Assembly: GCA_973895155.1 (NCBI GenBank)
Contig: OZ316892.1
Coordinates: 26,249,233-26,313,232 of the forward strand
Origin: Marsupella aquatica
Lineage: Eukaryota > Plantae > Marchantiophyta
Length of the DNA stretch: 64,000 nt
Direction of reading: 5' to 3'
A program made the position numbers and the translations under genes. Below the pieces are notes generated by a model that saw nothing but the letters and a program-made list of their open reading frames with translations, had not been told where the DNA came from and ran no database searches. Positions 14,901 through 57,991 of this stretch are shown piece after piece. How positions within the stretch are numbered: the stretch's first letter is position 1; each line of letters opens with the position of its first letter.

Positions 14901-15494
14901 GGGTAAGCAGCCTAGAAATAATGTCATGCTTTTTGGAAATATTAAATTCTTTAGAGAGATACCATCACGAAAGCGACCAAGTACGGAGCGCACACAGGAT
15001 TTAGGTAGTGCAATTTTGTGCACCAAGACACCCGTGCCAGCTGTTTGTGGTGTCCGAGTCATCTGGGTTTCACAAACGGAAAGGAGGAAAGGCGTTGCTT
15101 CACATCTTCTTGATGCTATGAGGTAGGCTCAGTATGTAGCTCACTTTTTTCAGTTCGGACATATATCAAGGAAATACTACATTTTCATCCGTGTTCTTTT
15201 TGCGCCCTCTCACATCCTCCAGATTTGTAGTTCAAAGTTCGGGTAAGAAAACCGTGCAACGGCTAGCTATTTTTTGTTTGAGAAAGAATCTTTGAAAGTT
15301 GCCTTGCGATCATGTGTTTTGCAACTGATCATATCATACGATGGCCTTGAACGCTTTTTTGCAGGAAAACGTTTTCTCTGGGTGTTGTACTGGAGCCTTC
15401 GCAATTTGCCTTTTCTCAACCGACACTAGAAGGAAGAATATTTGCCGCATGGTACTGCAAAGCAGATGAATTTCTAGTTTATACTTCTAGCTAG
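11909..15494 (+). CDS. CTF7: Cohesin acetyltransferase CTF7/ECO1 (multi-exon)
   Basis: C2H2 Zn finger QYFLDLGQSDFSYTTCHTCGLFYARGHENDEKVHKTFH and GNAT motifs AVCGVRVIWVSQTERRKGVASHLLDAMR and QFAFSQPTLEGRIFA. GT-AG exons: ..13234, 13456-13548, 13851-13925, 14113-15122, 15365-15494 (TAG). The 5' exons (11909-~12048, 12258-12322) and the start codon are tentative. Confidence 0.9.
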
Positions 15495-21700: not shown

Positions 21701-23598
21701 CCTCAACCCTTGCAATGGCCCTGCATGGATACCAAAGATGCAAATCATGGTCTGCAAGGTTGCCAGCCACAAACTACGACAGGCCAGTAACCTAAACCAC
21801 ATTTACTTTCCTACTCTATCCCTCAACGACCCCAATTAATTGATAAGAGATTGGCCACCAGAGAACACTAGGAACGAATCTCAAATCCATGATGGTTGAA
21901 GAATAATACTCGAGGGCAGAGCGCTCCGCCTTTATCACTGGCAGAGTGCTACAAATTGGCCAGGAGCCTAAAGCACAGTTTCCTGTCTACAACCACAAAT
22001 CTTCAGCACTCCACAACCCCACTGACAGTTGATCAGTTGCTGGCCAGCAAGTCAGCATCTACCACCAAATCGCAGGACGTAGTGGTTTAAATAAATAAAT
22101 GAATTGCAGACGGTATGGAAACTACGAAGCTGACGACAATTGTAACTGTTCCTTATACATCGAGAAGGGATCTGTGATTTAGAATGCGCAGCCCGCATAG
22201 TAGCAAAGTAAAGAAGCAGCTACATAAAGGATTAACCAGCCTCTGCAAACAACGACCGATGATACTCTACGTGTATGGTTTAAGCCCTTCGACGTTCGTA
22301 AGACCTTCCCTGACTGTAACAGAAACTTGAGCTATCGACTGTACAGAGTTCACCGTCCCATTGTCAACTTCCATCCGATAACCAGGGCCCACTCAGCGTG
22401 GTCACAGTTTTAACGCAAAGAAGAAGAACTCGAGATTATTGCCCTGACTAGAAGATAGAGAAACTCACAGAACGAAGCTTTGCTGTATCCGAGTCAATGA
22501 GAGCAGAAGGGACGAACACACAACCCCCGATGCTGTACATTCAGAGAGCTGCTTGTTCCTGCTTTCGAGGACCTCTCCCTTCCCTTTGCTGGATTCCACC
22601 AGTTGAGAAACTATACTTCTCGTTGCATTTGTAGCTTTGAGCGACTCAGGTTCTTGTGGGTGGCAAGCGTCAGAAACCGCCATTCCTGTCATGTAAAACC
22701 CATTGACGCAAATTAGCTATTAACACTACTGAATACTAATGAGTCAATGGCATCGCACCAACAGCTGTCACTAACATCCTGAGAAAATTAATGTCTTCTC
22801 ATTCAATCTGCAGGGAACCGAACAGTGCTGACCTCCGCCCATAAAGCGCGTCGCGACCACGTACTCTACATCCGTTTCACCATCATGCATGTCCTTGCCT
22901 GAAGTGGACAGTCCTACACGATCGGGAATCCTCTCCACATTCAAGAAGCAGTTTGACAAGCCATTCAATCCCTGACCTTCTGAATTACGCCTCGCGCATC
23001 CTGGTTCCGGAGACCCCACATCCAAATCCATCTTTTTCTGAATTAGATTTGACTCCTCAACCGACGAGGGAAGGTCCTTGGCAGGCTCTGAACTCGGGTT
23101 CAGGCGACTCATGATTGTCTCCGTTTCTGGACGGGAAGTGGCTAACTGACGAGAAATAGGAGTTTGAACTCCGACGAAATGGGTCACAGTGCCGTCTACT
23201 TTCGAAAACACGGGAGCGAGGTGAAACAGATTCCAAAACGGGTTTCCTTCCTTCGTGTAATTTAAAATCCGCACTTGAGCCGATCTTTCCTCCCTGATAG
23301 CGTCTCTTAGCTCGACCACAGTACGCCGGTCCGTGAGAGGGCCCTGCAAAAATCTACAATTCCGTCCCAACACTTCTTCTCTACTGTACCCCGACATCTT
23401 ACAAAATCCTTCGCTAGCATATATAATCGGATTCTCAGGTAGCCGTGGATCGCTAATCACGAAATTGAACTCATAGCTCCTCAACGACTCCTTCACCGAA
23501 TCCGTGTAAGTCGTGCTCAAAGATTCTACCAACGAATTCATCTTCCCGGTCCTCCGGACAACGTCCTCCTCCTTCTCAACAGTCACTTCCCGCCCCAT
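18737..23598 (-). CDS. LLP: LOV/LOV protein (PAS/LOV protein, LLP/PLP), blue-light flavoprotein
   Basis: Two LOV domains, each with GRNCRFLQG, and a C-terminal [17 protein letters not shown] motif typical of PLP/LLP; no kinase domain. In-phase GT-AG exons: 23598-22833, 22685-22469, 21475-21411, 21215-21136, 19416-19361, 19178-19115, 18892-18737 (TGA). Confidence 0.92.
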
Positions 23599-25149
23599 TC
23601 TCGAAATGCGATAGGGCAAGGAAGGAAAACCGATGATCCGCCAGCGTCCAACTTACTCAACAGTGTCTTGCCCACGGTCAACCGCTTTCAGTTCAAATAG
23701 AAACCCCGCTCATCGCTCAGCCGATCCAGGCGCCGTTCTGCTTGAGCCAAAATTATTCGGGTTCAGTGACACAAACGAGCTTCCACGCCCTCGCACTCCG
23801 GGCGAAAGATGAGACAGAATTTGAACAACACCATGTACCGACAAGGGCTTGAAGACTTCGTATTACGATACGACCGGCGAAATGCACCACAAGCAACCCC
23901 TCTGGTGTACACGCTGCAACCTTCACTGCCTTGGTCCTGTTTCGCAGAAGGTCTGGCAATGGGTAGACTTTATTCTACAGATCGCATCACATACGAGGAT
24001 ACCAGCTATCCGATTACAACCCTATCATGTGCTCCTGTCGGAACCCTTACCTGATCACTGGGGGATCCCGATAAAGCTCCAAAGCATTCTGCGTGCTGTC
24101 GTCTGCTTGGGAAAGACAGTTCATCGCACTTCATGGACCATGCACGCGCTAGGTGTTATCAGCAAGTCCTGGCATCCTCTTGGTACCTACAGAGAATGGC
24201 ATCAACAAAGTCAGAAGATGACTTTAAGGCAAACTGCCCCATTGGAATGCTCACAACGAGATGCAATTCAACTTCGGGGAACCAACGACAGGCTCTGATA
24301 TTTCACGAGGACCGTCTTCGGGTGCCGCGGTCCTGGAGAGAAAATCTAATACCCCCACTTGGATAGGCAATCTGTCTAAGGTTAGGAACTTATAGTAGGA
24401 TGTAGACTTGAGACGCTGCTTTCATTTAGAAGTTTTTCAAGGCAAAGAATCATTTGCTGAAATGACTAAGGCCCTCTCGACCACATCAGACCAACAAGGC
24501 AAGTTACACAACCCCATTGACGTGCAATTCGACAAGCTAAGTCCAGGGCAAAGACTTCACGATGAGGTACCTGACTACCGTACAGTCCACAATTTGCACT
24601 ATGGAAACACCGGGCAATGTGCACCAAAAGACGCGAGTGTAAACAGCAAGTGCCAATTGACAACATGGACAAGAAAGACAGATAGGACGTGTTGCGTAAT
24701 GCCCGTTAAACATTGAATTGCAATCTGACTAAGATGTCCACCTACCTAACGAGAGTCCCAAATACCACACTACCGAACGGAAGGTAGGGTTCACGACTGA
24801 TCACGCCTCCTCCGCCAGGGAGCAAATGAGCACATCAGCGAGCAACAGGAATCCGCTCCGACCACACATTAGTGCAGTGTGAAGGACGAATCGATAGCCT
24901 CTCGCCGTTGTTTCACCGAACTGCCCTGCACCGAATCAACGAGCTGCAAATCTGTAAGGTATTCGGCAAGAATCGCATCAAATCACTCTCTCCCGACTTC
25001 TCCGTGGAGCAGGCTGATGTGCACGTGATCGGGCAAGTCAATCTGCTCACAATCCGTATCGATCAGAGCGTAAAAGACCCGATAATCGAGCGGCGTCGTC
25101 ATGATCACCTCGACGACACTGTCCACGAGGGGCTTGCAGTGAGCTCCAA

Positions 25150-25680
25150 CTAACTGCACAATTTCATAAGTGCAATACCAGGTAAGTGCAATGCCTCCCG
25201 TTCTTTCCCCTTTTTTCCCGACCATGTCGCATTTTCTGCAGATCTCGTGTATCGTAAAATCCCACTAAGTGCACAATTTCGTAAGTGCAACTACCAGGTA
25301 AGTGCAATGCCTTCCGTTCTTTCCCTTTTTTCCCCACCATGTCGCATTTTCTGCAGTTTTCGTGGATAGCAAAGTCCCACTAAGTGCACAATTCATAAGT
25401 GCAACACTAAGTAAGTGCAAGGCCTCCCGTTCATCCCTTTTTTTCATCATGTAGCACTTTCTACAGTTTTCGTGATATAGTAAGGGTCCCACTAAGTGCA
25501 CAATTCATAAGTGCAACACTGAGGTAATTGCAAGGCCTGCCGTTTTTCCTCTTTTCATGTATAATAAAGTCCCACTAAGTGCACAATTCATAAGGGCAAC
25601 CATGGGTTATTGCAAAGCCTCCTGTCCTTCCCCATTTTCCACTACCATTTCGCACTTTTTGCAGTTTTCTGTTTATAGTA
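25150..25680. repeat. ~115-bp tandem repeat, ~5 degenerate copies
   Basis: CCCACTAAGTGCACAATTCATAAGTGCAAC...AAGTGCAAGGCCTCCCGTT recurs at ~25150, 25261, 25376, 25488 and 25571. Confidence 0.85.
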
Positions 25681-26022: not shown

Positions 26023-27159
26023 AGCACATCGCAGGCCACCCGCGAGGTGTAAAGTCTTGTTTACAGGGCATTTGCATGTCCTAAACCGCCACACACCCCC
26101 CACCCAATTGAGAGCTTCGTTTTAGGTTTCTTCCGGCAATTGTGCACTTATCCAGAGCTCCTTGTATCTCACTCATCTCGCCCTCGAGTCCTCCAATGCG
26201 CGACCCTCCACTGGACGACGGGACGAGACGAGACCCTCGTCTGGGGGCCGAGCGTCAAGTGGGGTATCCCGTACGCCCCGGCCTCCACGAGTCGCGTCAG
26301 CACTACCCCTTGGTGGGACCCAGGGGAGGCATCTTGGCGGTACGCTGGGCGCGGGCACGCTGCAACGTCTCCGATGTGCCGCGTGCCGCGCTTTGTCCAA
26401 GTGGCTGATACCGACGGCCTTTACGCTCGTGTGCGCCACAGCCAGTAATGATTGGCGTATCGTTCCTTGAGGGAGCGGGCTCAGGGCCCGCGGTAAAGGT
26501 GTCGTCCCGAGGGAGGCGGTACTCGGGTTACATGCAAAAAGCAGGCGAGCCCTCACTGGTCGCTTTGATTACCTTGCCCCTTTTTTTCCTAGGTTTCGAA
26601 CCGAAAACTACAAAATAGACTATGTAGAGGATAACAACGGTCCCGGCACATGCATACTACTGTAGGTAAAGACCTCGGATCAGAAAATGAAGATAAGTTA
26701 ACCATTTGTACAAGGAAGCTTTTCTAAGCATTCTAGCATTCTAGGAGTTCAGATTATAACCCCAGCCTTATGTATAGGGTAATGCAGGTATGGGCACAGG
26801 GTTATTAGGCTGTAACCCTGCGTCTGGAATATGAAAAGAAACTGATCGGCGACAGCCAGGAAGCTTCTTTGAATATTTTGGGAGCAGGTTACAATCTATA
26901 ACCCCAGCCCTGCCCTGCATTAGCGTACTTAACTCCTGCCCGGAAAGAGGTTAATGGCTCAACTTTTCAGGACAGCACCGGTAACCTCTTGTCCTGACAG
27001 GATTTACAGTACCTAAATGTAGTATGGAAAATAAAGTTAGCTCTCAAAATTTTATGGAGGGATATGCTCAATAGACCCCCTCCTGGAGATAGTTTGCTTG
27101 ATCAACCCCCTGCAAACATTTTTGCCCCAATCGACCCCCTCTTTATGATCCGTACCCTT

Positions 27160-27741
27160 TGTCGTGCGCATACACATCGCTTGTCACATACATCCAAACA
27201 TAGTCACACTGTCACATCACAAACACAAGAGAATGGAATACAAGTGGAACTCATGTCCACACATGTCCAAAACCCACAATAATCTTTTCAAGTATAGAAA
27301 ATGGAACAACAATCGACGCCAATCCGACAACGATCCATCCAATGCGATCACACACGTATGTCAAGCCCAACGCACCTTGTGCTTCAAGGAATCCACGTTA
27401 CATAAGAGAGCTCTCAGCCACCATAGCTAAGCTCTCCACTTCAGGCTCAACATCGAAAGATAACCCTTTCGATGCCTCACAAGAGAGAACTACTCTCTCA
27501 CACAAACCTAACAGAACCTTATCGGCTCATATAGTACACATACTAATCATACGGATTTAGATAGTACAATACACTCTAACACTACCTAGAATGGTGTGAC
27601 AGCTGTCGTGCGCATACACATCGCTACACAACATACATCGCTTGTCACATACATCCAGACATAGTCACACTACCACATCACAAACACAAGAGAATGGAAT
27701 ACAAGTGGAACTCATGTCCGCACATGTCCAAAACCCACAAT
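27160..27741 (-). repeat. 3' terminal repeat block A'-GC-B-A (one complete A-GC-B LTR plus a terminal A segment)
   Basis: A and A' differ by a 17-bp indel and about 4 substitutions. B and B' (321 bp each) differ at about 9 positions, mostly transitions. Confidence 0.9.
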
Positions 27742-27750
27742 TGCCCCCCT
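27742..27750 (-). promoter_or_regulatory. Polypurine tract (plus-strand primer)
   Basis: Minus strand AGGGGGGCA lies immediately upstream of repeat block A' (ATTGTGGG...). Confidence 0.65.
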
Positions 27751-27914
27751 AGCTAGGAATAAGATCCCCTAACTCTAGCTAGCCATGAGTTCTACAAGGT
27801 TGATATACACCTTTTTAGGTGTGAAGATCAGGAGGCCGGGTGCAAGTGAGCCCCATCGATCACCTACCTGCAATCTACATCTACCAAGAGAACGCAAATG
27901 ATAACTAGTCGGCG

Positions 27915-29433
27915 TCACCGACACTAAGGACACAACCACGATCCACTAGGAATCACCTCCAATGGTGGTGTCAAACACGACATGTGCCATCCTCTAGAAC
28001 ACTTATCACAAATCAACATAGTAGCTACTCCTTGAGCAGATCCACACAACATACACTTCAAACCAACACGAACATGTGCTAAGCTTGGATTTACTGTACC
28101 ATCAATGTTTGGAAGATGACATGGTGCACAGTTGCGCACATGATCCTTCCAAACCATACCATCACGTCCCTCCAACATCAGGACACCAGAAGGCAACACT
28201 TCACGCACACGCAAAATGGTCCGACCTGCGGTCACATCAAGTGTCGTTGGTGCTGTCTGCTGCAAATAAACATAATTACCTGGATGAAATCGTCGAATCC
28301 TCGCACGATAACCCCCTCCATGAATAATAGCATACCGCAAAGTATCACGATGCTGGGCATTAGCAAGGTTGTCAAAGGCCATGGGCATGACTCTCTCAAA
28401 AACTCGTGCCCTCTCTGAACAAACCTTTACCCAAATATCTGGATCATCCAAATCCACAATAGTTGCAACATCATGACGAATAGCCGTTGGCAAATCTGGC
28501 TCTCTACCATAGAGCAAGAAATAGGGTGAGAAGGATGCAAGTGATGCTTGTCGACTGAAACGGTAGCCCATAGCTAACCAAGGTAATTGGAGATCCCAGT
28601 CTCCCAAATGACCAACCTGCAAGCCATACTTGCGCAATCCTCTCTTCACAGTTTGTACAACTCTCTTTGCCAATCCATTTGCCTCAGGATGATCGCGAGA
28701 AGTAGTACGATGGTCAATCAAAGCTTGCTCACACAAACCCTCAAAATCTCCACGGAATTTCGTGCCCTGATCAGTCAACACCTCAGCTAGTGCTCCAAAG
28801 TGATTGAGTACTCGATCCAGAAATGTGGTAGCCACTCCTCCACTAGCTTTATCTGGCAATGCCACTAGTTCAATCCACTTGGAGAAGTGCTCCACCATAA
28901 CCAAAACATAACGGTTATGTCGTTGGGTGAGAGGCAATGGACTAGCAAAGTCCAAACTCCATCTATACCCCAACCCATGATTGGCAATGGATGCAATTGG
29001 GGAGTGGGAGCATTAAATGATGCCCTCACTCGATCACATACCACACACTTAGCTATCAGTTGCTGGACATGAGTGTGCATACCACGCCACAATACTGTGT
29101 CTGCATCAAACTGTAAGTGCGCTTCACACCAAAGTGACCCAACTCCTCGTGCGCATGTCGCACCAAATGTACTCGTTGTGATGGTTTTGGTACCACCAAT
29201 ACCTTACCATCACGTAGTACTCTCAAAAGATGGTTTCCTTCCCATCGAAACCTCTTCGCTCTCTGTAGAACCCTGTCACGTTCCTTGGCATCAACACTGC
29301 CAACAATAGAACCACTGCGTAGATATTCCAACACTCTCACATCATTGTGAATATCTTGCTGTCTAAAAGTTACCTGACCAACATCCACATCTGAAGACTC
29401 ATCATCTGCTTCATCCAATGAAGTAGAGTCCAC
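27915..29433 (-). pseudogene. Integrase (HHCC + DDE core) with C-terminal PHD finger
   Basis: HAHEELGHFG...CVVC; SLDFA...LTDQG...ANGLAKR (catalytic E changed to K); PHD CMLC...[30 protein letters not shown]. Frameshifts at ~29095 and ~28976. Confidence 0.9.
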
Positions 29434-30990
29434 AGAACCACTGCATGCTGGAACCCAACAAAGGAAGGCAGATGCATGTCATCCTGGCACCATCTCCTTA
29501 TCTGACTCATCATGTCATCTGGCTCCAGTCTCATTCTCCTTACTGGTACATGGATTGCGGCTCAACCGATCTGCATCCAAATTTACCTTTCCAGGCCTAT
29601 GCATCACCTGGAAATCATACTCCTGTAACAACAATGTCCATCATGCAAGCTTCCCAGTAAGCTTGTCAGACTCCATTAACCACTTGAGAGGCTGATGATC
29701 AGTGATCAAAGTGAAAGGATTACCAAACAAGTAACAACGGAAGTGTGCCATAGCCCACACTATTGTCAAACACTCTCCCTCATAAGAGCTATACTTAGCC
29801 TCTGCTGAATTGTTTGATCTACTGGCATATGCCACAACAAACTCATGCCCTTCATCATCTTTCTAAGTCAGCACTGCTCCAAGTCCTACTCCACTCCAAT
29901 TAGTGTGTAGCTGAAATGGTCTCCCTGAAATGGGTCTTCTCAAAATAGGGGATGATGTCAATCTTTCTTTCAACTCCTGAAAGGCATGCTCCTGATCATC
30001 ACCCCAAATCCATTTCTAATCCAACTTAGTGAGTATGGTCAAAGGTTTAGCAAGTTGGCTAAATCCTTTAACATACCTCCTATAGTAGCTCGCCAATCCC
30101 AAGAATGCACAAATTTTGCTCACATCAGCAGGACGAGGAATCTGTGTAATGGCCTCCACTTTAGTCTGTTGTACATCCAATCCCCCTGGGTATATAGTGT
30201 GGCCCAAATACTCAATCTGTTTTTGGAATAACTTACACTTGCCAGGATGGAGCTTCAACCCATCTGCTCTCAATCTCTCCAACACAATCTGCAAGTGCTG
30301 CTGATGTTCTTCCACAGTGGAAGAATAAACCAAAATATCATCAATATAACATCTCACAAAATCCAACCCTGCAAGAATTCGATCCATGACTCTCTGGAAT
30401 TCAGCTGGTGCATTCTTCAACCCAAATGATAAGAACAACCACTGATACAAACGATCCTTGCCATACGAATCAATTCCCCATAATGCTTTCTTGGACCTGT
30501 CAAAATGTCTGATTGGAAGCTGATGGTACCCTGCCCTCAGATCCAATGAACTAAAAACCTTTGCATGCCCCACTGCATCAAAGATCTCCTCAGGTGTGGG
30601 CATGGCATATCGATCAGATTTTGTCTGACGATTAATAGGTCGGTAATCACCACACATGCGCCTATTCGTGTAATTATCATGCACATCCTTCTTGGCTGGC
30701 ATCATTGTGGCAGATGCATACTCCCCGTATGAGATCTCCACCAAACCAGCCTCCAACAAATCCTGAGTTTTGCTTTGAATCAGAGCTCTCTCCATGTCAC
30801 TATAACGGTATGGTCTACGAAAGATTGGCGCATCACTAGCCAATTCAATCTGAATACCAGGGCCCTTCAATGTCCCCAAATCCTTCATGCTGAATGCAAA
30901 ATAATTCCAGTAACTCTTCAGGAATCGATGCATGCGACGTCTCTCCTCCCCTGTCAACTTAGGACCAATCTGTGGCTCCCAACTCTCCAC
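29434..30990 (-). pseudogene. Reverse transcriptase and RNase H
   Basis: RRMCGDYRPIN, LDLRAGYHQL, FGLKNAPAEFQR, YIDD, FLGLASYYRRYV; RNase H AYASRS...YEGECL...TDHQPLKW. In-frame premature stops. Confidence 0.95.
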
Positions 30991-31239
30991 CAGATCCCTA
31001 ATATCTTTTTGTAGGGTAGAAGAGATAGCCGATGATTGCTATTTAGCAGTAGATTGAGCAGTCCCTTCCTGCTCAACAATCTGTCCAGCCTTGGCCAATC
31101 CTGCCATAGGTCCATGGACTGTCTGCTCGCCCCCAGTTGTGGTCACTACTGTCTCAGTAGACCGCAAGTTCACTAATGGACGATCAGTAACACCAGTAGA
31201 ACGCATCTGCAATTGTTTAGCGACCCCCAAGCTGAGAAT

Positions 31240-32232
31240 CCAAGTCAAGCAATTCAAATCCATTGCTTGACCAAGAACCTGGCGGCGTGAACTCTCTGAC
31301 ACCGAGGCAACGGCAGTGGTGCTTGTCAAAAATCCCATAGCACGTTCCCTCTCATCAGTAGTAGGTTCCACTAACTGTTGGAGAGCTGTGTCCCACACAA
31401 GTCTAGGGCCACCTGCTCTGAATGCATATGAAGCAGAGTGGCTTACAAAAGTGGGTAATGCACAACGTGGGCGCCCAACGACATTGACCACCGCCAATGG
31501 AGGTCTGTCAGACTGGGTCACATGTTGTGCACAACGCCCTGGATCCAAAATATCATCCACCACCAAGGATGTTGAGCGAGGAATGCTATCAAATGCTCGC
31601 TTCAACACCTCACAAGGTAACAAATTAGTCCACCACAAGCGTGGACGATGTGCACGAGAACCCACACGTGCAACATCCAATAACATAGCAGGTCCAATCC
31701 AAGATCTGACCTGATGAATACTAGCAACAAGTCAATGACGATCATCACCCAATAGTGGCACATTCTCCAAAATGTAGGCAGGGGAATGTGTTTGATGTAA
31801 TTGGAGATGACGCAATATCTGTAACATCTCCCAAAACAATGCAGAGCGTGGATCATGAAGTCCATGTCCAACTCCAGCTCTGGATTGGCCCTGACATGGC
31901 CAACTTGCAATCACCAAATCAATAGGGCCAACGCGATCCAAATGATCCGCTCCCAATAGTGAAATATCAGCAGGCAGTGCATGCTGATAGCCACGAACAG
32001 CATCCACTGGCAACAACTATGGATAACGATCCACCAACATAGCCACATGGCGCAATGAGACTCTCCGTGCTATCTCATCTATCTCCACATACAAGTAGCA
32101 ACGCACAGGAATTCCAGCGTGAAGAATAGCAGCAAATCCAGTGCTAATCCCACCAAATAGATCCAACAAACAAATACCCTCTAGTGGGTACTGCCAAGCA
32201 ATAGGAGTGGTATCCAATGGTGAAAGAGTCAC
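31240..32232 (-). pseudogene. DNMT3-like C5 cytosine DNA methyltransferase domain within the retrotransposon polyprotein
   Basis: Motifs in canonical order and in the RT frame: I LLDLFGGISTG, II YVEID, IV IDLVIASWPCQGQSRAG, VI ILENV, VIII AHRPRLWWTNL, IX ERERAMGF, X RRQVLGQAMD. Confidence 0.9.
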
Positions 32233-32599
32233 CGGTCCATTTGCAAGAGGCTGCTCTGCTCCTGACTATGGTGTAAAAGCATGACGCCATGCATCATGTA
32301 CCAATCGTGCTGCCCTTTGCGGCAAGGCCTGTGCAACACCCCATATTGGTGGCACAATACTAGTTGGATTGGGATGATCCCATCCAGGTTGCTCCTGCGC
32401 ACCATCTGCTCCTCATGTGACTCCTCCAATGGTGGAACATCCGCTGCATGCGTATTACCCTCAATCAAATCATCAAGTCCAGTAATCACACCACTGAATG
32501 CTGATAAAGACAATAGTGTGGATTTAGGGCCTCCAACAGGTCCACTAAATCGCACTGGCAACCTACTCAATCGAGCATCTCCTGACTGCCAATCAGGTC

Positions 32600-35060
32600 T
32601 ATATGACACTGATTCATCCCAAAAATCAAGAATAAATCCCATGGGGTAGAGCACTGTACATCCCACCAACACATTATATGAATCTGCCTTAGTCAAAATA
32701 GCTCACGCCTGTATCTGTGAGCTATCTATCGCATGACCTTCCTGAATCCTCAAATCAAGTGGTCTCTTGGTGATATGCTGTGTAGGTGTAGGTCCCCCCA
32801 AGGAAGTCTGAATGGGAAATGGACAATCCTCCAAATCCTCTGGATGCAATCCCAATCCGCGTATGACAGACTTTCCCAACATCAAGGGCTGAGCACCAGT
32901 ATCCAGTAACACTCTCGCTGGCTGGTATACCACTCTAGAAGGCCCAACTAATCAGAAGATACCACTCCGATTATCCAATGACACAACACTAGGGTTAAAC
33001 CTAGTCCTCTCAAATGCAGGATGTGCTGGTAAATCCACCAACTTTGCCGCTGATGCATGCCACGTCTCACTAGTAGCAGTAGGTGGTGTCAACTTTACTG
33101 CTCCAGAACTGCATGCTGCTTCTACATGAGAAGCCAAAACTGGAGTATCCTCGCATAATGTGGCTGCCAATCTAAACACATCAGCTGGACCAACTCCCAA
33201 GTTCAGCATGTCTGTCGCTGAAAATAATGGGGTGCGCACTATGGTAGTAGCCGCCCCCAGCAGGGTACCTGTCATCCCTGCCGCATCACTACTTGATTTT
33301 GCCAACTTACCCACACTACGGTTTGTCCGAACCGGGTTCATAGAGGTAGTCTGAACTGTCTCTGACAATATAAAAGATTGAGGAAGCTTTGTCTGCCGAC
33401 GTGCATCCCCCTTCTATGGATCTAGCTCCACTACTGCTCCTCGGGGCTCAAGAGCTTTGGCTGCTCTACGTGTCAAAGCTGCTGATGCATCAATATGTGC
33501 AGTGCCACACATGAATCCCATGGTGGCAAGGTCTCCATTAGCCCCATAAGATGTGGAAGCCCCATAGGATGTAGAAGCCCCATCACCAGAAGCAGGTCTC
33601 ACCTGAGAACTAGCCATAGCAGCTAGTTGTTGCTCCAATTGAGCAATCTTAGCATCCTTAGGATCTGTGGTCATAGCAAGAGTAGCATCACCTCCCTGCC
33701 TTGCTGCATGTGGCATACATCGGCCACGACCACCACCTCTACCTCCTCTTCCCTCATCATGTGTGCGTTGTCCTCCTCTCCGTACCTCGGGATGGAGTGA
33801 GAAACACCTATCCTTGGTGTGTCCAGGAACTCCACAATGATCACACTGTCGCTGATCAGGTGCTGAGGCCCCTCCTGGCCCTCTATGATCCGGTCAATAT
33901 CGTTGTGCATGGTCCCCACCACAAGTCCAACATCCTGACTGCTGTCCAGCATAGGAAGGCACAGGTCTCTGACTTGTAGACTCTCGTGCAATAGGCTTCT
34001 CCCTCTGGGTCTTCCGTGCAGTAGGTTGTGGTGTGGGTGTAGATGCAGCCTTTGGTGCTTCCTTGGCAAATCCGGAAGTCACCACCTTCTCATTCACCAT
34101 ATTGAGCTCAATTCGCTCAGAAAGTGTAAAAACAACTGCCAATGTGGGATCTGCATCCCTAAGCAAAGTGACATCTCTCACTCTACGTCGCAATTCTCTA
34201 TCCAGAATTGCATACCAAAATTGGACTGCCTGAGCCTCTGTCACTCCCTTGGTGACAGTGATCAATCTGCGCATACGAGTGTATGCCTCACGTAGACTCT
34301 CTCCAGTCTTGCGCTGAAACTCTTGGAGACCCTTCAACTTATCAGTCCTCACACCCTGATAGTTTTGCTTTAATACTTCAAAGAACTCCACCACAGGGTT
34401 AAATGTTGGCGCAACTCCAACCCCTATCACAATTGCACTGGTAGGAGTAGCGGTGGATGTTGTTGGAGTGGTACTGGTAGATGGTGTGCCACTCTGGCTA
34501 GTGCTGCTAGAAGAAGCAAACAGCTATAGCAATGGGTTGGGCAGCCGCTTTAGTGCCATAGGTGATGGACACATAATTAGGCGACCAATGCTGCCTCCAT
34601 GCCTCAATCTCAACCAAATGAGCCTTCCAAAACTCATGGTAATCATCCATGGGTGGCCCCTCCAAATGCTGAAATAATCCCTTCCATGCCATGAAAGGGG
34701 TAAACAACGTGGCATTACGCAATGATTGCATATCGCACCATGTATCAAACTCCTAGATGAAGTCATCCAGATCAATAGTGCCAACAGCACCAGAGTATCG
34801 TCGTGGGCCCTTTGTAGCCCCGTACATCTCTTCCATATCCCACAACAAAGGTGCAATCACCTGATGACAAGGAGAACTGATCACAGAGTCCTCGTCAAAA
34901 TCACTCTCTGAAGATGCACTTGCAACTGATATCAATGTCGTTGGCCGAAACGACACCCCACTTCGAGTGAAACCGGTCCTCTGTCCCTCGGACAACCCCG
35001 TAGCACCCGAAGAATCCGTGATGACAAATCTGCCCTAAATCATCACCATCACCTTCATAA
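32600..35060 (-). pseudogene. Gag (two Zn knuckles) and aspartic protease
   Basis: Gag-like IDLDDFI*EFDTWC and FQRKTGESLREAYTRMRRL; knuckles CWTCGGDHAQRY and CDHCGVPGHTKDRC; protease VLLDTGAQP. Stops, plus a frameshift near 34500. Start codon approximate. Confidence 0.85.
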
Positions 35061-35581
35061 TAGGCTTCACAATGCCCCAATATTGTAGCTAAGAATCCAT
35101 GCAAAATTGATCCAATCTATGCATCCAGATGGATTCAGAAGTATCAAAAACCTCTAGGTAGCTTCTGATTTGGCCCAAAACAGGACTCTAGACAAACTAA
35201 TAAGTGTATAAAGCCCCCTGGCCCTTCAACTTAGACAACAAGTTGTGAAAGCTTGTGTGTACACTGCATGCCATAAGAACTCCATGGTTAAGTACGCGCA
35301 GGAGGAATAACTTTGGGATGGGTGACCTCCCCCTTGGAGTTATGCACCAACTTAGGCACTCCAAACCAACCAATTGTCAACTACTCCTCCCGTACCAGCA
35401 AGCTGCCTTGCGGCCCGCTCCAGTCCCGCTCCTGCTCCGCCCTCACGCCCCTTGTCACAAGTCGCCTTGAAACATCGAGATGAGCCTGAGGGAGCCCTTC
35501 ACACCCGCCACACTCCGATACGTCGGGGTGAACCTCCAATTCAAATTCATTCAACAATCATCCGGACGCTCGGTCCGCAAG

Positions 35582-36023
35582 TTGGAGTGGGATGATCCCA
35601 ATCCAAGTCCTTCACGTCCACTACACAGGTGAAGTCACCAACATACAATTGGATTGGGTTGATCCTAATCCAAATCCACTTCAAGGTCCAGATGACGTCT
35701 CTGGACACGCCAACATACAGTTGGATTGGGATGATCCCAATCCAAATTCACCTTCGCCCAAAATCAAGTTTCCAACGTTGTCAATGTACAGTTGGATTGG
35801 GATGATCCCAGTCCAACTTCAACTTCAAGTCCAAATGGAGTCCAAAGTTATCAGTGTATAGTTGGATTGAGATGATCCTAGTCCAAATCCAACTTCGAGT
35901 CAAAATGCGGTCTCAAGAGACACCCACAATTGGACTCGGATGATCCCAATCCAAATCCAACTTTGAGTCAAAATAAAGTCTCAAGAGACAACCCACGATT
36001 GGACTCGGATGATCCCAGTCCAA
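35582..36023. repeat. CRISPR-like array: 7 x 25-bp palindromic repeat with 42-47-bp variable spacers, in the retrotransposon 5' leader
   Basis: Consensus TTGGATTGGGA-TGA-TCCCAATCCAA (11-bp stem, 3-nt loop) starting at 35582, 35649, 35721, 35792, 35862, 35930 and 35999. No cas genes, so not called CRISPR. Confidence 0.9.
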
Positions 36024-36591
36024 AACAAGGCGCACCACAAAACACGCCGCAATTCTTGGACCAAAACACTGTTCAACAATATTGTCGTTTTCCTTGTGCC
36101 CTAGGTCACCGCTGCACCTCGTCGCAATGCAGACTCCATCGTGACACCGACGACACAATTCACCAACATTTGATTGTCACTTTCTTTGTAAAAGTGTACT
36201 ATCCATCAACGAATCTCAAATCCGCAATAGCCTTTGCGATGCTGCAACGCAATCGGTAAGGACTAGAACTCCAAAAACACAATGTAGCAACTAGCACTCA
36301 AAGCGCCTTGTGATCTTTGATCAGTCTTTCATTGCCATATTCGACAAGCTCCAAATGTCAATTCGATAATCAACTTCAAACAGGACTTCAATGAACAAAC
36401 TATTAGAGAGCTGCAAATAGCACCAAGCTGCGCTCTCAGAGTAATCAATAGCTCACAATCCCCAATCAACCAGCCGCTGATCTGACTTGAGCTACCACAA
36501 ATCAACCAACAAGCTCTCCACGATCCAAGCTACCATGGATCAACTCTGCAATACAGCAAGCTTCGAAACAGCTTCGAATCAACTTGCAGTG

Positions 36592-36603
36592 ATCTTTCGA
36601 TGT
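36592..36603 (-). promoter_or_regulatory. Putative self-priming primer-binding site
   Basis: ACATCGAAAGAT directly follows block B' and is complementary to ATCTTTCGATGT inside block B (12/12 at 27450-27461; 11/12 at 36773-36784). No TGG-starting tRNA PBS. Confidence 0.55.
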
Positions 36604-36924
36604 AATCTTTTCAAGTGCAGAAAATGGAACAACAATCGACGCCAATCTGACAACGATCCATCCAATGCGATCACACACGTATGTCAAGCCCAACGCACCT
36701 TGTGCTTCAAGGAATCCACGTTACATAAGAGAGCTCTCAGCCACCATAGCTAAGCTCTCCACTTCAGGCTCAACATCGAAAGCTAACCCTTTTGATGCCT
36801 CACAAGAGAGAACTACTCTCTTACACAAACCTAACAGAACCTTATCGGCTCATATAGCACACATACTAAACATACGGATTTAGATAGTACGATACACTCT
36901 AACACTACCTAGAATGGTGTGACA
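36604..36924 (-). repeat. 5' terminal repeat (block B only)
   Basis: 321-bp copy of 27281-27601; begins TGTCACACC on the minus strand. Confidence 0.92.
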
Positions 36925-39900
36925 CCTTTGTTCTTCTATAAGTTATTATAGAGTGAGTTTCTGCCTTACAAAGACCAAATTGGGTCACTTGTCACTGTAG
37001 CCATTTCAACCACGAACCATGCTCAGAATCACAGTAACCGAGCGTTGTCAAGCCGCAACCATTCCCGGGCCACAAACTGAACCGGAGGCGTTGAATGTTT
37101 GTGCCGCTTATACATCGACATTAGGGTTATTCTCATGCGAAGACATTGACATGAATGTCTTCGCTTCATAAACATCATTCTGCATTTTTTTATATCCTCC
37201 CATTCTGTTTTCTTGTCCATGCTCGAACGGTGACGACTTCTCAGCGGCTTTTCACGAGGCACATGGTTCACATGTACAATTGATCGAAGTGAGGTTTAAG
37301 GATCATGGGAGGATATCAAAAAATACCCTGAACCCTAAATACCCCTTCATATGGAGAGTTTCAATCTATAATTTAATTGGTAATGTCCGATCATATTTCA
37401 GTCATGGTTGGTATGAATGCACTGTTTGGGAAGACATTGTGGACATTATCTTCCCACCACACTTAGCATTGTCTTCTCACCTAAATTCAATTTGCAATTA
37501 GTGATAGATACTGGTCCCCTATTAACATTTCATTGGCTGGTTTTGTAATGTAGACCTGGTTATTATTTACTCTTGGGTTGTTCCCCTTTCATGTGATTGT
37601 CTTACTACTTTATAGCCCTGGTTTTTGCTGAGTGCATTCATATCAACCATGACTGAATCAAGATCGGACATTACCAATTAAATTATAGAAACTCTCCATA
37701 TGAAGGGGTATTTAGGGTTTTTGATATCCTGCCATTCCTTAAACCTCACTTCAGTTGTACATGTGAACCATGCCCGTCGTGAAAAGCCGCTGAGAAGTCA
37801 TCACTGTTCGAATGTGGACAAGAAAAACAGAATGGGAGGATATCAAAAAAATGCAGAATGATGTTTGTAAAGTGAAGACATTCATGTCAATGTCTAAGCA
37901 TGAGAATAACCCTAATGTTGATGTATAAGCAACGCAAACATTCAACGCCTACAGTTCAGTTTGGGGCCCGGGAACGGTTGCGGCTTGACAACGCTCGGTC
38001 ACTGTGATTAGCATAGTTTGTGGTTGAAATGGCTACAGTGACAAGTGACCCAATTTGGTCTTTATAAGGCAGAAACTCACTCTATAATAACTTATAGAAG
38101 AACAAAGGGTACGGATCATAAAGAGGGGGTCGATTGGGGCAAAAATGTTTGCAGGGGTTGATCAAGCAAACTATCTCCAGGAGGGGGTCTATTAAGCATA
38201 TCCCTCAAATTTTATGGGCAGAAGATTATGCAAATAGCAAACCTTTTAGACACTGATAACCTTTATCCATACAGCATTTGCATATTGTATAATGCAAGCA
38301 AATAGAAAATTTTAATAGCAAGGACAGCATGGTTAGCCAGTCACGAGTGGATCAAAATGTCTTTTGATTTTTGATTACTTTTTTACTTCTAATGCATTTC
38401 TAAGACTCCATATGGCTAGCTAGCCAGGTAGGTAAACGAGGAGTCTCAAATTTGGATTTTACTAACCTGGTTTTGGCTAGCTAGGGGCTAAATTGGGGTT
38501 CTGTTGTTCAAAACAATAGATTTTATTGTGCTTACTCACACCCTACAGTTACCCACCTTGGCATTTTTTGTCTACTTCTCACTTCGGATTAGAGCATCTT
38601 TACGGGTTTGGTGGCCACGCCTCCCCAAGTCATAGAGATGGAGGTGCCTGTGGCTAGAATTGTATTGTATTTGTCATCATTGGAAGTCTACTACCCACCC
38701 AAACCACCCGCCCAAGCTGACCTCCGTCCTGAACTCATGTGCTCGTACTTTCAGAGGTGGTTGATTGTCTTGGGGTTTCTCCTTGGAACTGGAAACTAAG
38801 TTGGAAACTAGAAAGCCTTGGCATGTTTGGTGTGCTAATAACTTGGGTAAGGATCTTTAGCACTTTGCCACCCAAAAGTTTCTCCCCTCATCTTTCACCC
38901 AGCTTTTGCAATATCTTCTTAACCACCCAAGTCATGCAATTTGTTCAACTATGCTCCCTTCTTCTGTCTCCCCCATCTTTCACATCAACAATACAGAGTG
39001 CGTGTTACATATATAACACTGCCAAAGAACTCACATGCTTAGAGTAATTGTTTTCATGAAGAAGCTATCCAAGTACACTCATCATAGCACTCAGTGAAAA
39101 ATCCGTTAGAGCTACCATACCACCCTTTCATGATGGTGTTTGGCTTGTGATGGCCCGAGGGTGATTATAAGCCAGAACACACATGTGACAGGTGTTAGTA
39201 GACTTAAAATCACTGAGGAGATTTACCAGATATACCCTTATTATTCACATTGCCTTCCTCATGCAACGACGTTTTCACCTGAGATAGTTATGTTTTCATT
39301 CTTGATTGTAGTAATAGCCCTCATGTCTTAATGTTTCTGCCATGTAAAACATGCGCAATAATATACAAAAAAAGAAAGTGGAAGTGATTTAAGTTCAAGG
39401 TAGTTTAAATTGCATGACCCTGGGTAGTACACATCTAGGGTGAACGAATTTTTGTTCCCTGAAAAACATTCATTTTGGGGTCAGAGAAGTATGCACTTGT
39501 GCACGAGGGACACAACCTTTATCCAAAGAACTCCATTCACACAAGAATTGGCACCCACTTCCATTGCTACTGTCTTTCACCCAAAATAAGGCCTAGGACA
39601 GTTTTGGACTTTTTTGACAGAACAGTCCCTTATGCTCAAGCACACTGCCCTTTCTATTAGAGAGCTCAGTTTGTATTCCAATGTGGGTAATAGGGTTTGA
39701 AAAAGTGAGTGAGAAAAAGTCATAAAACACTAAGTAAATTAAAACAAGACATCTCATAAGGGTTCACGAGGCAGTTTCTGGTTGGTCAAAATCAGTTTGG
39801 AAAGATTTTTCCAATGAGACTAATATAGTCAAATTTCATTGAGGATTGCAAGACCTACAATTTTACAAAGATGCCACTCCGGGGCCAGACTGCTGACCTT

Positions 39901-41479: not shown

Positions 41480-42170
41480 TTCGTATTTCTTTTGCATCTT
41501 GCTGAATTGTCCGTCCTTGATTATTACTTTGCGCGGTGTGCAGCTCGTCCTCTGTTTCTCACCTATTTGAGCATCTCTCCGGTATGTTTCTCTTGCATCT
41601 TGATGAATTGTCCATCCTTGGTCATTCTATTTGAGCAGTGTGCATTTTCTCCTCTGTTATCACCTGTTCGAGAATCTGTCGGGGATCGTTTTCTCATGTT
41701 TTTCTTGCATTTTGATGAATTGCTCACCTGTTCGAGAATATGTCGGGGATCATTTCTCATGTTTCTCTTTCATCTTTGAGAATTGTTCTCACTTTATCAT
41801 TCTATTGTGTGGTGTGCATTTTCTCCTCTGTTAACATCTTTTCGAGCAATTCTGCGGTGTCTTTTCTTCATGTTTCTCTTGCATCATGATGAATTGTCCA
41901 CCCTTAGATCATAATTCTGTTGCGCGGTGTGCATTTTCTCCTCTGGTATCACCATTTCAAGCACTTCTCCGGTATCTTCACTTCATGTTTTCCTAGCATC
42001 TTGATGAATTTTGCATTCTTTACTATTCTATTGAGTTGTGTGCATTTTCCTCTGTTCTCTTCTGTTTGAGTAGCTCCCGGGTATCTTTTCTTCATGTTTC
42101 TCTTGCTTCTTCATGAATTTTCCATCCATTATTTAGATTATGGTGTTCATTTTCTCTCCTGTGGTAATCC
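41480..42170 (+). repeat. Pyrimidine-rich degenerate tandem repeat upstream of the methyltransferase gene (probably within a 5'-UTR intron)
   Basis: Recurrent CATGTTTCTCTTGCATCTTGATGAATTG...GTGTGCATTTTCTCCTCTG. An acceptor-like TTCTCCCAG at 43214 precedes the ATG at 43225. Confidence 0.65.
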
Positions 42171-48640: not shown

Positions 48641-49380
48641 CTTCCTGGTTTGGTTTATCGGGGTCCACACGAATTGGTGTCGATGGTGTCAATTCTTCGT
48701 GTAGCGAGAGATCGATTAGCTGGGAACACAATTTCCCTAGTTGGTTTGGTTGGGTCTTCCTGATGGGGGAGGAGACCTGGTATCGATGGTGTCAATTCTT
48801 GGTGTAACGAGAGATCGATTAGCTGGGAAAAGTATTTTCCACGTTGGTTTCGTTAGGTCTCCCGATGGGGGAGGAGGGCTGATATCGATGGTGTCAATTC
48901 TTCGTGTAGCGAGAGAGATCGATTAGCTGGGAACGCTATTTTCCTCGTTGGTTTCGTTGGGTCTCCCCGATGAGAGAGGAGACCTGGTATCGATGATGTC
49001 AATTCTTCATGTAGCGAGAGATCGATTAGCTGGGAACACTATTTTCGTAGTTGGTTTCGTTGGGGAGGGGACTTGGTATCCACGGTGTCAATTCTTCGTG
49101 TATCGAGAGATCGATTAGCTGGTGAAACTGTTTCCCTGGTTGGATTGGTTGGGTCTCCCCGATGGGAGAGGACTGGTATCGATGGTGTCAATTCTTCGTG
49201 TAGGGAGAGATTGATTACCTGGGAAAACTATTTTCCTGGTTGGTTTCGTTGGATCTCCCCGATGCGAGAGGACTGGGAGAGGACTGGCATCGATGGTGTC
49301 AATTCTTCGTGTAGGACAGATCGATTTGCTGGGAAAACTATTTTCCTGGTTGGATTGATTGGGTCTCCCCGATGGGGAGG
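48640..49380. repeat. ~100-110-bp tandem repeat, ~7 copies, abutting the U2 3' end
   Basis: Unit TGGTATCGATGGTGTCAATTCTTCGTGTAGCGAGAGATCGATTAGCTGGGAA...TTGGTTTCGTTGGGTCTCCCCGATGGG. Confidence 0.9.
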
Positions 49381-49575
49381 AGGGCTGCGCCTGCTTCGGA
49401 AGTAGTGCAATACCGAAGCGACACTGGCGGTCCCGGTGCAGCAAGCTACACCATTGGGAAGGCACCCGAGAGAAATTAGATTAATATCGTGAGAGTCGAT
49501 GACTCTCGTATCAGATATTAAACTGATAAGAACAGATACTACACTTGATCTTAGCCAAAAGGCCGAGAAAGGTAT
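49380..49575 (-). ncRNA. U2: U2 spliceosomal snRNA
   Basis: Minus strand ATACCTTTCTCGGCCTTTTGGCTAAGATCAAGTGTAGTATCTGTTCTTATCAGTTTAATATCTGATACG (includes the branch-point recognition GTAGTA) and loop IV ATTGCACTAC. The 3' end is approximate. Confidence 0.96.
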
Positions 49576-50084: not shown

Positions 50085-50580
50085 ATAGATCGATAGACAC
50101 ACCTTTTGCCTTGAGGGCCAAAAATCACGGAAATGAACCAATTGAAAGAAAGGGATTGACAGGAAGACCTTTTGCCCTGGTCTTTTAGGCTTTTTAGCCT
50201 TTCTGTGTGACGACTGCCATAGATAGATAGACACACATTTTGCCTTGAGAGCCAAAAATCACAGAAATGAACCAACTGAAAGGAAGGGATTGACAAAAAG
50301 ACCTTGTGCCCTGGTCTTTCCGGCTTTTTGGCCTTTCCGTGAGACCAATGACATCGGTAGATAGACACACCTTTTGCCTTGAGGGCCAACAATCAAGTAA
50401 AAGAACCAACTGAAAGAAAGGGATTGGCAGAAAGACCTTTTGCCCTGGTCTTTCCAGCTTTTTGGCCTTTCCGTTGTTTTCCCTTGGGTTTGAAATAAAA
50501 TATATATAATATTTGCAAAGGGATTGACAGAAAGGGATTGACAGAAAGAACCAACTGAAAGAAAGGGATTGACAAGAAAG
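50085..50580. repeat. ~130-bp repeat, 3 copies plus fragments
   Basis: GATAGACACACCTTTTGCCTTGAGGGCCAA...GAACCAACTGAAAGAAAGGGATTGACAG...GACCTTTTGCCCTGGTCTTT at ~50092, 50226 and 50360. Confidence 0.85.
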
Positions 50581-57500: not shown

Positions 57501-57854
57501 ATCACCATACCCGTCATCAGAAACACTCGGGGGATTGGAATTGCTGCCCTGGTGAACTCTTCGAGGATTCGAACTACGCGAAGAAGGAGCAGGAGCAGCC
57601 GCAGCAGCATAACCACTCTGTCTACCGCCACGACCAGCAGCAGCAGCAGCCGCAGCAGAAGAAGAGCGATGCTGGAACCTAAGCTGATGATTTCGCTGAT
57701 CACATCCTCCGCCAACGTGAGAAGCAGATGACAAGCACAATGCACTGGTGCTGCTGCTGCTAATGTTGCTAATGTTGCTCCTACTGATGCTGCTGCTGGC
57801 CTCTAGGACAGCTCCTCCAGCCGCTTGCAGCACAGGCAGCTGCAGCAGCGCCAT
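51542..57854 (-). CDS. CFM2: Chloroplast intron splicing factor with four CRM domains (CFM2-like)
   Basis: CRM1 [22 protein letters not shown]2 [26 protein letters not shown]3 [23 protein letters not shown]4 [19 protein letters not shown]...KVILYRGW; acidic tail. Exons 57854-56385, 56170-55672, 55529-55399, 55195-54851, 54556-54400, 54164-53872, 53511-53452, 53297-52937, 52767-52637, 52081-51542. Four CRM domains distinguish CFM2 from CRS1/CFM3. Confidence 0.88.
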
Positions 57855-57991
57855 AGCTTCGATCGTCGAATTGAAACCAGGTCCGTGACCAGAGAGCGTT
57901 CGGTCACCAACGAGTGATGGAACCTTGCTCTTTCCTTCGTGGATCGTCTTTCGCCCTCCTCTATCGTGAACTGTACTGTCTGTCTTCAATT

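What the first reader, a model, noticed from the sequence alone, without database searches (positions are those of the whole stretch)
27160..36924. Candidate new retroelement system: Gypsy element with its own DNA methyltransferase, PHD reader, hairpin array, self-priming and permuted LTRs
Seen: one element combines a DNMT3-like C5-MTase, a PHD finger on integrase, a regular palindromic repeat-spacer array, a tRNA-independent primer site and a split-repeat terminal structure. Established: C5-MTase-carrying retrotransposons have been reported from Symbiodinium dinoflagellates and the charophyte Klebsormidium, and split direct repeats are a hallmark of tyrosine-recombinase PAT/Ngaro elements rather than DDE-integrase Gypsy elements. 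Inference: this may be a land-plant family that methylates its own cDNA, reads histone marks at its target and integrates through a non-canonical circular intermediate. I do not know of this full combination having been described, but I cannot search.
Basis: partly seen in the sequence, partly recalled or inferred. Interest (0 to 1): 0.92.

Follow-up and report, generated by a model that had tools for sequence, protein, structure and literature searches.

The report
Gypsy integrating through an internal palindrome
This is a dead copy of a jumping gene from a land plant (likely a moss or liverwort) whose inserted ends lie at a small palindrome inside its end repeat, which likely means it joins its DNA ends into a circle and reopens it before inserting; the methyltransferase plus split-repeat combination was already reported in an alga, but a currently active Chlamydomonas element appears to share the layout and would allow a direct test.

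Summary
All five features are present, but they are not one new five-part system. The 9,765-bp minus-strand element (4-bp target duplication; many stops) has Gypsy gag-PR-RT-RH-IN, a DNMT3-like domain, a PHD finger, a predicted self-primer and the layout B-PBS-internal-PPT-A-GC-B-A. Gypsy + Dnmt3 + split repeats is published (KnitGypsy-Dnmt3, 2018, figure legend). The hairpin array is subfamily-specific (0 of 9 related 5' regions). What stands: the layout is a family trait, not an accident. Relatives down to about 32-38% RT identity end or break at the same CA-GC-TG site, and the B|A junction sits at the primer-defined cDNA ends, once with a primer remnant. This is a two-LTR circle reopened inside U3. 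Read by eye, 17 of 20 Chlamydomonas Gypsy library entries show the same border, including lab-active, tRNA-type-primed Gypsy-7a_cRei, so the permutation is separable from self-priming, array and probably methyltransferase, and is testable. The scan found the permuted layout twice before on other genomes.

The parts
27156..27159 (.). 4-bp target-site duplication, copy at the element's 3' end (CCTT on +)
27160..27280 (-). Terminal A2: start of U3, moved to the right end; ends CGCACGACA
27278..27282 (-). B|A junction: PBS-defined U5 end abutting the PPT-defined U3 start (inferred circle junction)
   Evidence: compare L025, L015, L035
27280..27601 (-). B2: rest of U3, R and U5 (second copy)
27598..27607 (.). 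Internal att palindrome GACA-GC-TGTC; the 2-nt GC spacer (27602-27603) is absent from both inserted ends
   Evidence: same core in L004, L025, L039, variant in L033/L035
27604..27741 (-). A1: start of U3, directly after the polypurine tract
27742..27750 (-). Polypurine tract
27921..28055 (-). PHD finger at the integrase C-terminus (last Cys pair interrupted by a stop in this copy)
28686..29184 (-). Integrase H2C2 and rve core; D(34)E spacing; frameshifted and Lys at the Glu site in this copy
29617..30672 (-). Reverse transcriptase and RNase H
31033..31041 (-). Conserved in-frame stop TAG-CAA-TCA between MTase and RT, predicted read-through site
31200..32190 (-). DNMT3-like C5 methyltransferase, unrearranged motif order (DLFGG, WPCQ, ENV, RPRLWW); two stops in this copy
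32357..32387 (.). Eighth copy of the array palindrome inside the protease-MTase linker
32529..34836 (-). gag, zinc knuckles and aspartic protease (weak Pfam scores, clear match to relatives)
35582..36023 (.). Seven-unit degenerate tandem repeat with palindromic core in the 5' leader; subfamily-specific
36592..36603 (-). Non-tRNA primer-binding site, complementary to 36773-36784
36603..36924 (-). B1: 5' terminal repeat lacking A; starts TGTCAC; holds the predicted transcript start and self-primer at about 36784
36925..36928 (.). 4-bp target-site duplication, copy at the element's 5' end

Best explanation
This is a decayed copy of a Gypsy retrotransposon clade whose inserted ends lie at a conserved CA-GC-TG palindrome inside U3, most likely because the linear cDNA is first joined end to end into a two-LTR circle and the DDE integrase then reopens it at that palindrome. 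Shown: the layout B-PBS-internal-PPT-A-GC-B-A, 4-bp duplications, loss of the GC spacer at the ends, repeat borders that coincide with PBS and PPT. Inferred steps: (1) transcription starts in B1; the RNA 5' end pairs with the PBS and self-primes; (2) ordinary reverse transcription gives [A-GC-B]-internal-[A-GC-B]; (3) the U5 end is joined to the U3 start; (4) integrase nicks after CA on each strand of the left palindrome, leaving 2-nt GC overhangs like processed retroviral ends, and inserts with a 4-bp stagger. Only this permutation keeps R at both ends and can replicate again. Accessories (inferred): the DNMT3-like enzyme ends a Gag-PR-MTase ORF, would be packaged at Gag levels and likely methylates the cDNA; RT-RH-IN-PHD would be made by stop read-through; the PHD likely tethers integrase to nucleosomes; the array is a subfamily-specific leader repeat, likely an RNA structure for packaging or dimerisation.
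For: Same complete layout with 4-bp duplication in L025/L023 (AAGG) with no detectable DNA similarity in B; 4-bp duplication in rearranged L015/L020 (CACA): 3 of 3 insertions with both ends visible, window included. 8 of 8 distinct related 5' ends start at the same TGTCATGAC with different flanks, none preceded by A-GC. PPT-A-GC-B in L004, L025, L035, L039; A ends CGCACGACA even in L034 at 38% RT identity. B|A junctions differ exactly at the primer-defined ends: flush in the window, one extra A in L025, 9 nt of PBS plus 7 other nt in L015, first 2 nt of PBS in L033/L035, as expected of end-joining. 17 of 20 Chlamydomonas Gypsy internal entries whose border I could read carry CA+gc against the LTR's TG (by eye); for Gypsy-7a the paper states the left LTR lacks the last 8 bp of the right. 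HIV and spumavirus integrases can cut palindromic 2-LTR junctions to give CA-3' ends (PMC4372172 Background). MTase: dN about 0.25 vs dS 2.2-2.9 against four relatives; PCQ invariant in 15 of 15. Stop + CAA at the same place in 12 of 12 loci in frame there. PHD in 15 of 15 loci that reach that far.
Against: No circle was observed as free DNA; all evidence is from inserted or assembled sequence. A closed circle has two identical palindromes, yet the mirror product (B|A-GC-B-internal-A) was seen in 0 of 9 5' ends; the model does not explain this bias for a 120-bp A. L009, L012 and L034 (and possibly L017) end PPT-A|flank without GC-B-A; these may be one-LTR-circle inserts, A-by-A deletions or assembly collapse. 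L033/L035 are looped assemblies, so their inserted ends are unknown. L002 and L008 have lost all or part of the self-primer site and L001 the PBS. Chlamydomonas entries were read by eye and not aligned to this element. No methylation, read-through or histone-binding data.
Confidence: 0.6

Rival explanations
1. Cut and insert first, join afterwards: integrase cuts the linear cDNA at the left palindrome, holds both new CA ends, inserts them, and host repair then joins the free U5 end to the short A piece.
For: Gives the same product, the same 4-bp duplication and variable B|A junctions; needs no free circle.
Against: Needs every insertion to survive a double-strand break with a 6-120-bp fragment; junctions are mostly near-flush. 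Does not explain the one-sided bias either.
Confidence: 0.17
2. Reverse transcriptase jumps from the U5 end onto the U3 start and extends the cDNA by part of a third LTR; integrase trims at the two outermost palindromes.
For: Explains why only one permutation is seen (9 of 9 5' ends, and window) and untemplated bases at the L015 junction.
Against: No such extended cDNA observed; rests on recalled template-jumping behaviour of other RTs.
Confidence: 0.15
3. The B|A junction is inherited through the RNA as in PAT/Ngaro-type replication, with no new joining per cycle.
For: Repeat layout is formally the PAT A1-B1-A2-B2 type.
Against: PBS and PPT are canonical in place; repeat borders coincide with them in unrelated LTR sequences; junctions vary and one keeps PBS sequence; no tyrosine recombinase.
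Confidence: 0.05
4. The layout is a one-off recombination, nested insertion or assembly artefact of an ordinary LTR element.
For: This copy is old and decayed; some loci are short-read assemblies.
Against: Repeats differ by 3-4% so they are not collapsed duplicates; clean 4-bp duplication and empty site; same layout in independent families and in a curated library.
Confidence: 0.02

Closest known systems
KnitGypsy-Dnmt3 of Klebsormidium nitens (de Mendoza et al. 2018, PMC5890265; passages, sections 9 and 11, supplement passages; the figure itself not seen)
   Same: Gypsy domains, unrearranged Dnmt3-like domain in the polyprotein under purifying selection, repeats 'the same as a DIRS retrotransposon' (A-coding-B-A-B).
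   Different: Described from one alga; the text I saw gives no internal att site, target duplication, primer type, PHD, read-through stop or mechanism. No Klebsormidium protein came up, so common descent is untested.
Gypsy-7a_cRei and other Chlamydomonas Gypsy entries (Craig et al. 2023, PMC9940879; passages and supplement passages)
   Same: PHD in Gag-Pol; left LTR lacks the last 8 bp of the right; library entry has PPT-A-gc before the LTR and the same A at its end.
   Different: A is about 6-50 bp, many have tRNA-type PBS, the figure legend lists no methyltransferase; the layout is not interpreted in the passages seen.
PAT/Ngaro tyrosine-recombinase retrotransposons (PMC4157794, passages)
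   Same: A1-B1-A2-B2 split direct repeats.
   Different: Here a DDE integrase, TG...CA ends, 4-bp duplication, PBS and PPT.
Tcn1 / Tf1-Sushi chromoviruses (PMC6317226, passages)
   Same: Predicted self-priming in non-seed plants.
   Different: Those have a chromodomain and full LTRs; here a PHD and permuted LTRs.
Retroviral 2-LTR circles (PMC4372172, abstract and Background); IS3/IS30 circle junctions (recalled)
   Same: DDE enzyme cutting a palindromic end-to-end junction to yield CA-3' ends.
   Different: There the cut site is the circle junction itself and, for HIV, a reserve route; here the cut site is encoded inside U3 and appears to be the normal route.

Membership tests
Ty3/Gypsy LTR retrotransposon | gag-PR-RT-RH-IN order with rve integrase | tested here: met
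Ty3/Gypsy LTR retrotransposon | TG...CA ends and 4-6 bp target duplication | tested here: met
   4 bp in 3 of 3 insertions
Ty3/Gypsy LTR retrotransposon | PBS after the 5' repeat and PPT before the 3' repeat | tested here: met
Ty3/Gypsy LTR retrotransposon | Two complete LTRs forming the inserted ends, bounded by PBS and PPT | tested here: not met
   ends are B and A; the PPT-to-PBS unit A-GC-B is complete only once
KnitGypsy-Dnmt3 kind | Unrearranged Dnmt3-like domain in a Gypsy polyprotein | tested here: met
KnitGypsy-Dnmt3 kind | A-coding-B-A-B repeat layout | tested here: met
   against the legend
KnitGypsy-Dnmt3 kind | RT and DNMT cluster with the K. nitens sequences | not testable with these tools
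   no Klebsormidium sequence among hits; trees lack it and lack outgroups
PAT/Ngaro | Split direct repeats | tested here: met
PAT/Ngaro | Tyrosine recombinase | tested here: not met
   Pfam finds rve and no recombinase in the three sense-frame translations
Tcn1/Tf1 chromoviruses | Self-priming PBS | tested here: met
   predicted pairing only; 10-17 nt, 0-9 of 5000 shuffles in 5 of 5 cases tested
Tcn1/Tf1 chromoviruses | Chromodomain on integrase | tested here: not met
   PHD, no chromodomain hit
Tcn1/Tf1 chromoviruses | RT placement in the Tcn1 clade | not tested
   no REXdb references at hand
CRISPR-like repeat-spacer array | Unrelated, unique spacers | tested here: not met
   spacers 47-86% alike

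The most novel reading that the evidence does not exclude
A green-plant-wide Gypsy clade, from Chlamydomonas to bryophytes, has made the two-LTR circle, usually a by-product, its obligatory integration substrate by moving the integrase site into U3; one branch also packages a DNMT3 at Gag stoichiometry (Gag-PR-MTase, with RT-IN behind a leaky stop) so that new copies arrive pre-methylated.
Probability: 0.45. Interest if true: 0.9.

Novelty: new variant of a known kind. Interest (0 to 1): 0.72.

Why it matters
Whether two-LTR circles can serve as integration precursors is a long-running question in retroelement biology (PMC4372172 calls them long considered dead ends). A natural family in which every replication-competent copy bears a circle-type junction, with a member actively jumping in Chlamydomonas laboratory strains, would make this directly testable and would link retroviral-type integrases to the circle-junction chemistry recalled for bacterial IS3/IS30 transposases. 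In practice, standard LTR finders will mis-delimit these elements, so a high-copy bryophyte family and its DNMT3-like genes are probably mis-annotated as host 'hypothetical proteins' or methyltransferases.

Tried and rejected
No whole genome is held, so copies in the host could not be aligned. Sequencing runs: no RNA holder listed. Contig depth was 15-50 times lower over the 5' leader and array than over the coding part in all 4 runs; this agrees with a minority subfamily but contig depth is no copy number. A junction-level tally across the host's own copies was not obtained, which leaves the share of full versus A-only 3' ends in the host open. Viral-contig hits (17 loci) are weak methyltransferase matches and were not followed; L043-L049 (weak) were left out. 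My first reading of a 5-bp duplication was wrong; it is 4 bp. dN/dS among dead metagenome copies (median 0.5 for MTase, 0.35-0.48 for RT) reflects decay and was not used as evidence. Trees (MTase tree is the quick one, no outgroup) only show a bryophyte group and a distant group with MTase between RH and IN; they cannot say whether the MTase was captured once. The fold of the whole primer region is not better than shuffles (z -0.48); only the specific pairing is. No tRNA gene in the window. The REM1 paper is not held. Paper searches found no description of an internal att or circle route for such elements; theses, Repbase and subscription journals are not covered, and figures and part of the PMC9940879 supplement (cut) were not seen.
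Full report
Observation. The element runs 36924 to 27160 on the minus strand, 9,765 bp, TG...CA. It sits in one arm of a foldback element whose other arm shows the empty site; the duplication is CCTT, 4 bp, and contigs of 3 of 4 laid runs skip 9,769 bases at this place. Pfam finds weak gag and protease, then C5-MTase, RT, RNase H, H2C2, rve and PHD. The MTase is DNMT3-like: the 29 best of 36 PDB matches are DNMT3A/B/C, ahead of DRM2 and HaeIII. The PHD's nearest solved relatives are CHD4, DPF3, PHF12, ATXR5, KDM5 PHD1, many of which I recall as readers of H3 tails unmethylated at K4; specificity is untested. The copy is dead.

Terminal anatomy. In sense order: B (322 nt), primer site, leader, coding, PPT, A (138 nt), GC, B, A (121 nt). 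The unit between PPT and primer site, which reverse transcription would place at both ends, is A-GC-B. The inserted element is what results if a two-LTR circle is opened inside the left unit at GACA-GC-TGTC with loss of GC. The B|A junction joins the last base before the primer site to the first base after the PPT.

Is it a family trait? A profile of 15 homologues fetched 49 metagenome loci; I mapped the 42 strong ones. L025/L023 has the whole layout with unrelated B sequence, a 16-bp perfect palindrome at the A-GC-B border and duplication AAGG; rearranged L015/L020 has duplication CACA. Ten loci, 8 distinct insertions, show a 5' end; all start at the same base and none is preceded by A-GC. 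In a distant group (RT 30-40% identical, MTase between RH and IN), L039 has PPT-A-CGACA-GC-TGTCA, L034 ends A with CGCACGACA as the window does, and L033/L035 have GTCA-GC-TGAC within an 824-nt LTR and an LTR|LTR joint. Against: L009, L012, L034 and perhaps L017 end PPT-A|flank; L031, L032, L036, L037, L040 show no terminus; L033/L035 are looped assemblies. Junctions are flush (window), +1 nt (L025), +9 nt of primer site and 7 other nt (L015), +2 nt (L035): variation confined to primer-defined ends, as expected if the junction is made anew.

Which features travel together? PHD: 15 of 15 loci that reach it. MTase: selected for by the search, so its frequency cannot be judged; between families dN is about 0.25 and dS above 2. 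Self-primer: 10-17 nt of perfect complementarity in 5 of 5 cases tested, with different sequences in three families; lost or damaged in L001, L002, L008. Array: real (z -5.7) but absent from 9 of 9 related 5' regions and from all 66 loci at up to 5 mismatches; its spacers are related; an eighth core lies in the pol linker. New: an in-frame stop followed by CAA lies at the same place between MTase and RT in 12 of 12 loci in frame there (6 others of the 18 examined are frameshifted or, L022, have TAG-TAG-CCA), and several intact database proteins end there. The context matches the read-through signal UAG-CAR-YYA that I recall from tobacco mosaic virus. So ORF1 is Gag-PR-MTase.

Literature. de Mendoza et al. 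2018 (PMC5890265; passages, sections 9 and 11, supplement passages) report KnitGypsy-Dnmt3 and state in the Fig. 4c legend that its repeats are DIRS-like while its domains are Gypsy; they propose cDNA methylation. Self-priming is predicted for plant Tcn1 (PMC6317226, passages). PHD fingers are common in algal retrotransposons (PMC8557442, PMC6673714, passages). Craig et al. (PMC9940879, passages) describe Gypsy-7a_cRei, with PHD, 86 new insertions in CC-4532, and a left LTR lacking the final 8 bp of the right. In their repeat library (supplement passages read by eye), 17 of 20 internal entries whose border was visible (families 2, 3, 5-11) have CA+gc against the LTR's TG, mostly with the same short A at the LTR's other end; families 1, 4 and 12 are canonical. 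Gypsy-3's border reads GTGACA-GC-TGTCGTGCG, the window's site in reverse orientation. Many have TGG-type primer sites. These were not aligned to the window element, so kinship is inferred from the border and the PHD. Integrase cleavage of palindromic 2-LTR junctions is known for HIV and spumaviruses (PMC4372172, abstract and Background). Ten searches found no account of this route.

Mechanism. Most likely (0.6): self-primed reverse transcription, end-joining to a two-LTR circle, integrase cleavage at the U3 palindrome, 4-bp staggered insertion. Only the observed permutation retains R at both ends; A-only and mirror forms would be dead ends. The unexplained point is why the left palindrome is chosen; for short-A algal members the joined U5 sequence could complete the site, but not obviously for a 120-bp A. 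Rivals: insert first and repair (0.17), RT end-jump with trimming (0.15), RNA-inherited junction (0.05), accident (0.02).

Earlier scan notes. I had stated the circle reading before looking. Two notes on other genomes reach the same reading; they are unchecked AI notes and are not counted as support.

Verdict. Observation confirmed; the five-part novelty claim is not. The MTase with split repeats is a published kind, here extended to a probable bryophyte; the array is incidental. The permuted, internal-att architecture is clade-wide, unexplained in the papers I could search, and testable in a model alga. New variant of a known kind; interest 0.72.

Noticed in passing
window 27057-27159 and 36929-37430 versus 37631-38206: The element is inserted in one arm of a foldback (long inverted-repeat) element; arms about 90% alike over 600 bp; itself repeated in the host.
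   Followed up: partly
window 28686-28970 (-); L004, L032, L037, L039, L040, P0030, P0032, P0033, P0037: Integrase core has 34, not the 35 residues I recall as usual, between the second Asp and the Glu site in 10 of 21 sequences examined (the other 11 did not match the pattern); a possible clade marker.
   Followed up: partly
L031-L042, P0032, P0033, P0036, P0037: Second architecture with the MTase between RNase H and integrase; L033, L035, L036 also have a PHD-like match inside RT, and long extra ORF-like sequence follows the integrase in several.
   Followed up: partly
window 32357-32387: An eighth array palindrome in the pol linker, where most family contigs diverge; a deep contig in X3 spans it, so it marks a subfamily rather than this copy.
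   Followed up: partly
window 22774-23652 (-), 12824-15123 (+), 54779-58067 (-): Host gene pieces that look like a LOV-domain protein, an ECO1-like acetyltransferase and a CRM-domain splicing factor (named from recalled motifs, no search run).
   Followed up: no
window 10333-10820, 25145-25639, 41486-42124, 48675-49382, 50085-50474, 57993-59321: Several unrelated tandem arrays of 70-135 bp units; such arrays are common in this window, which lowers the surprise of the element's array.
   Followed up: no
PMC9940879 supplement, Gypsy-12_cRei: Canonical LTRs but the internal entry begins with sequence complementary to its LTR: self-priming without permutation (by eye).
   Followed up: no
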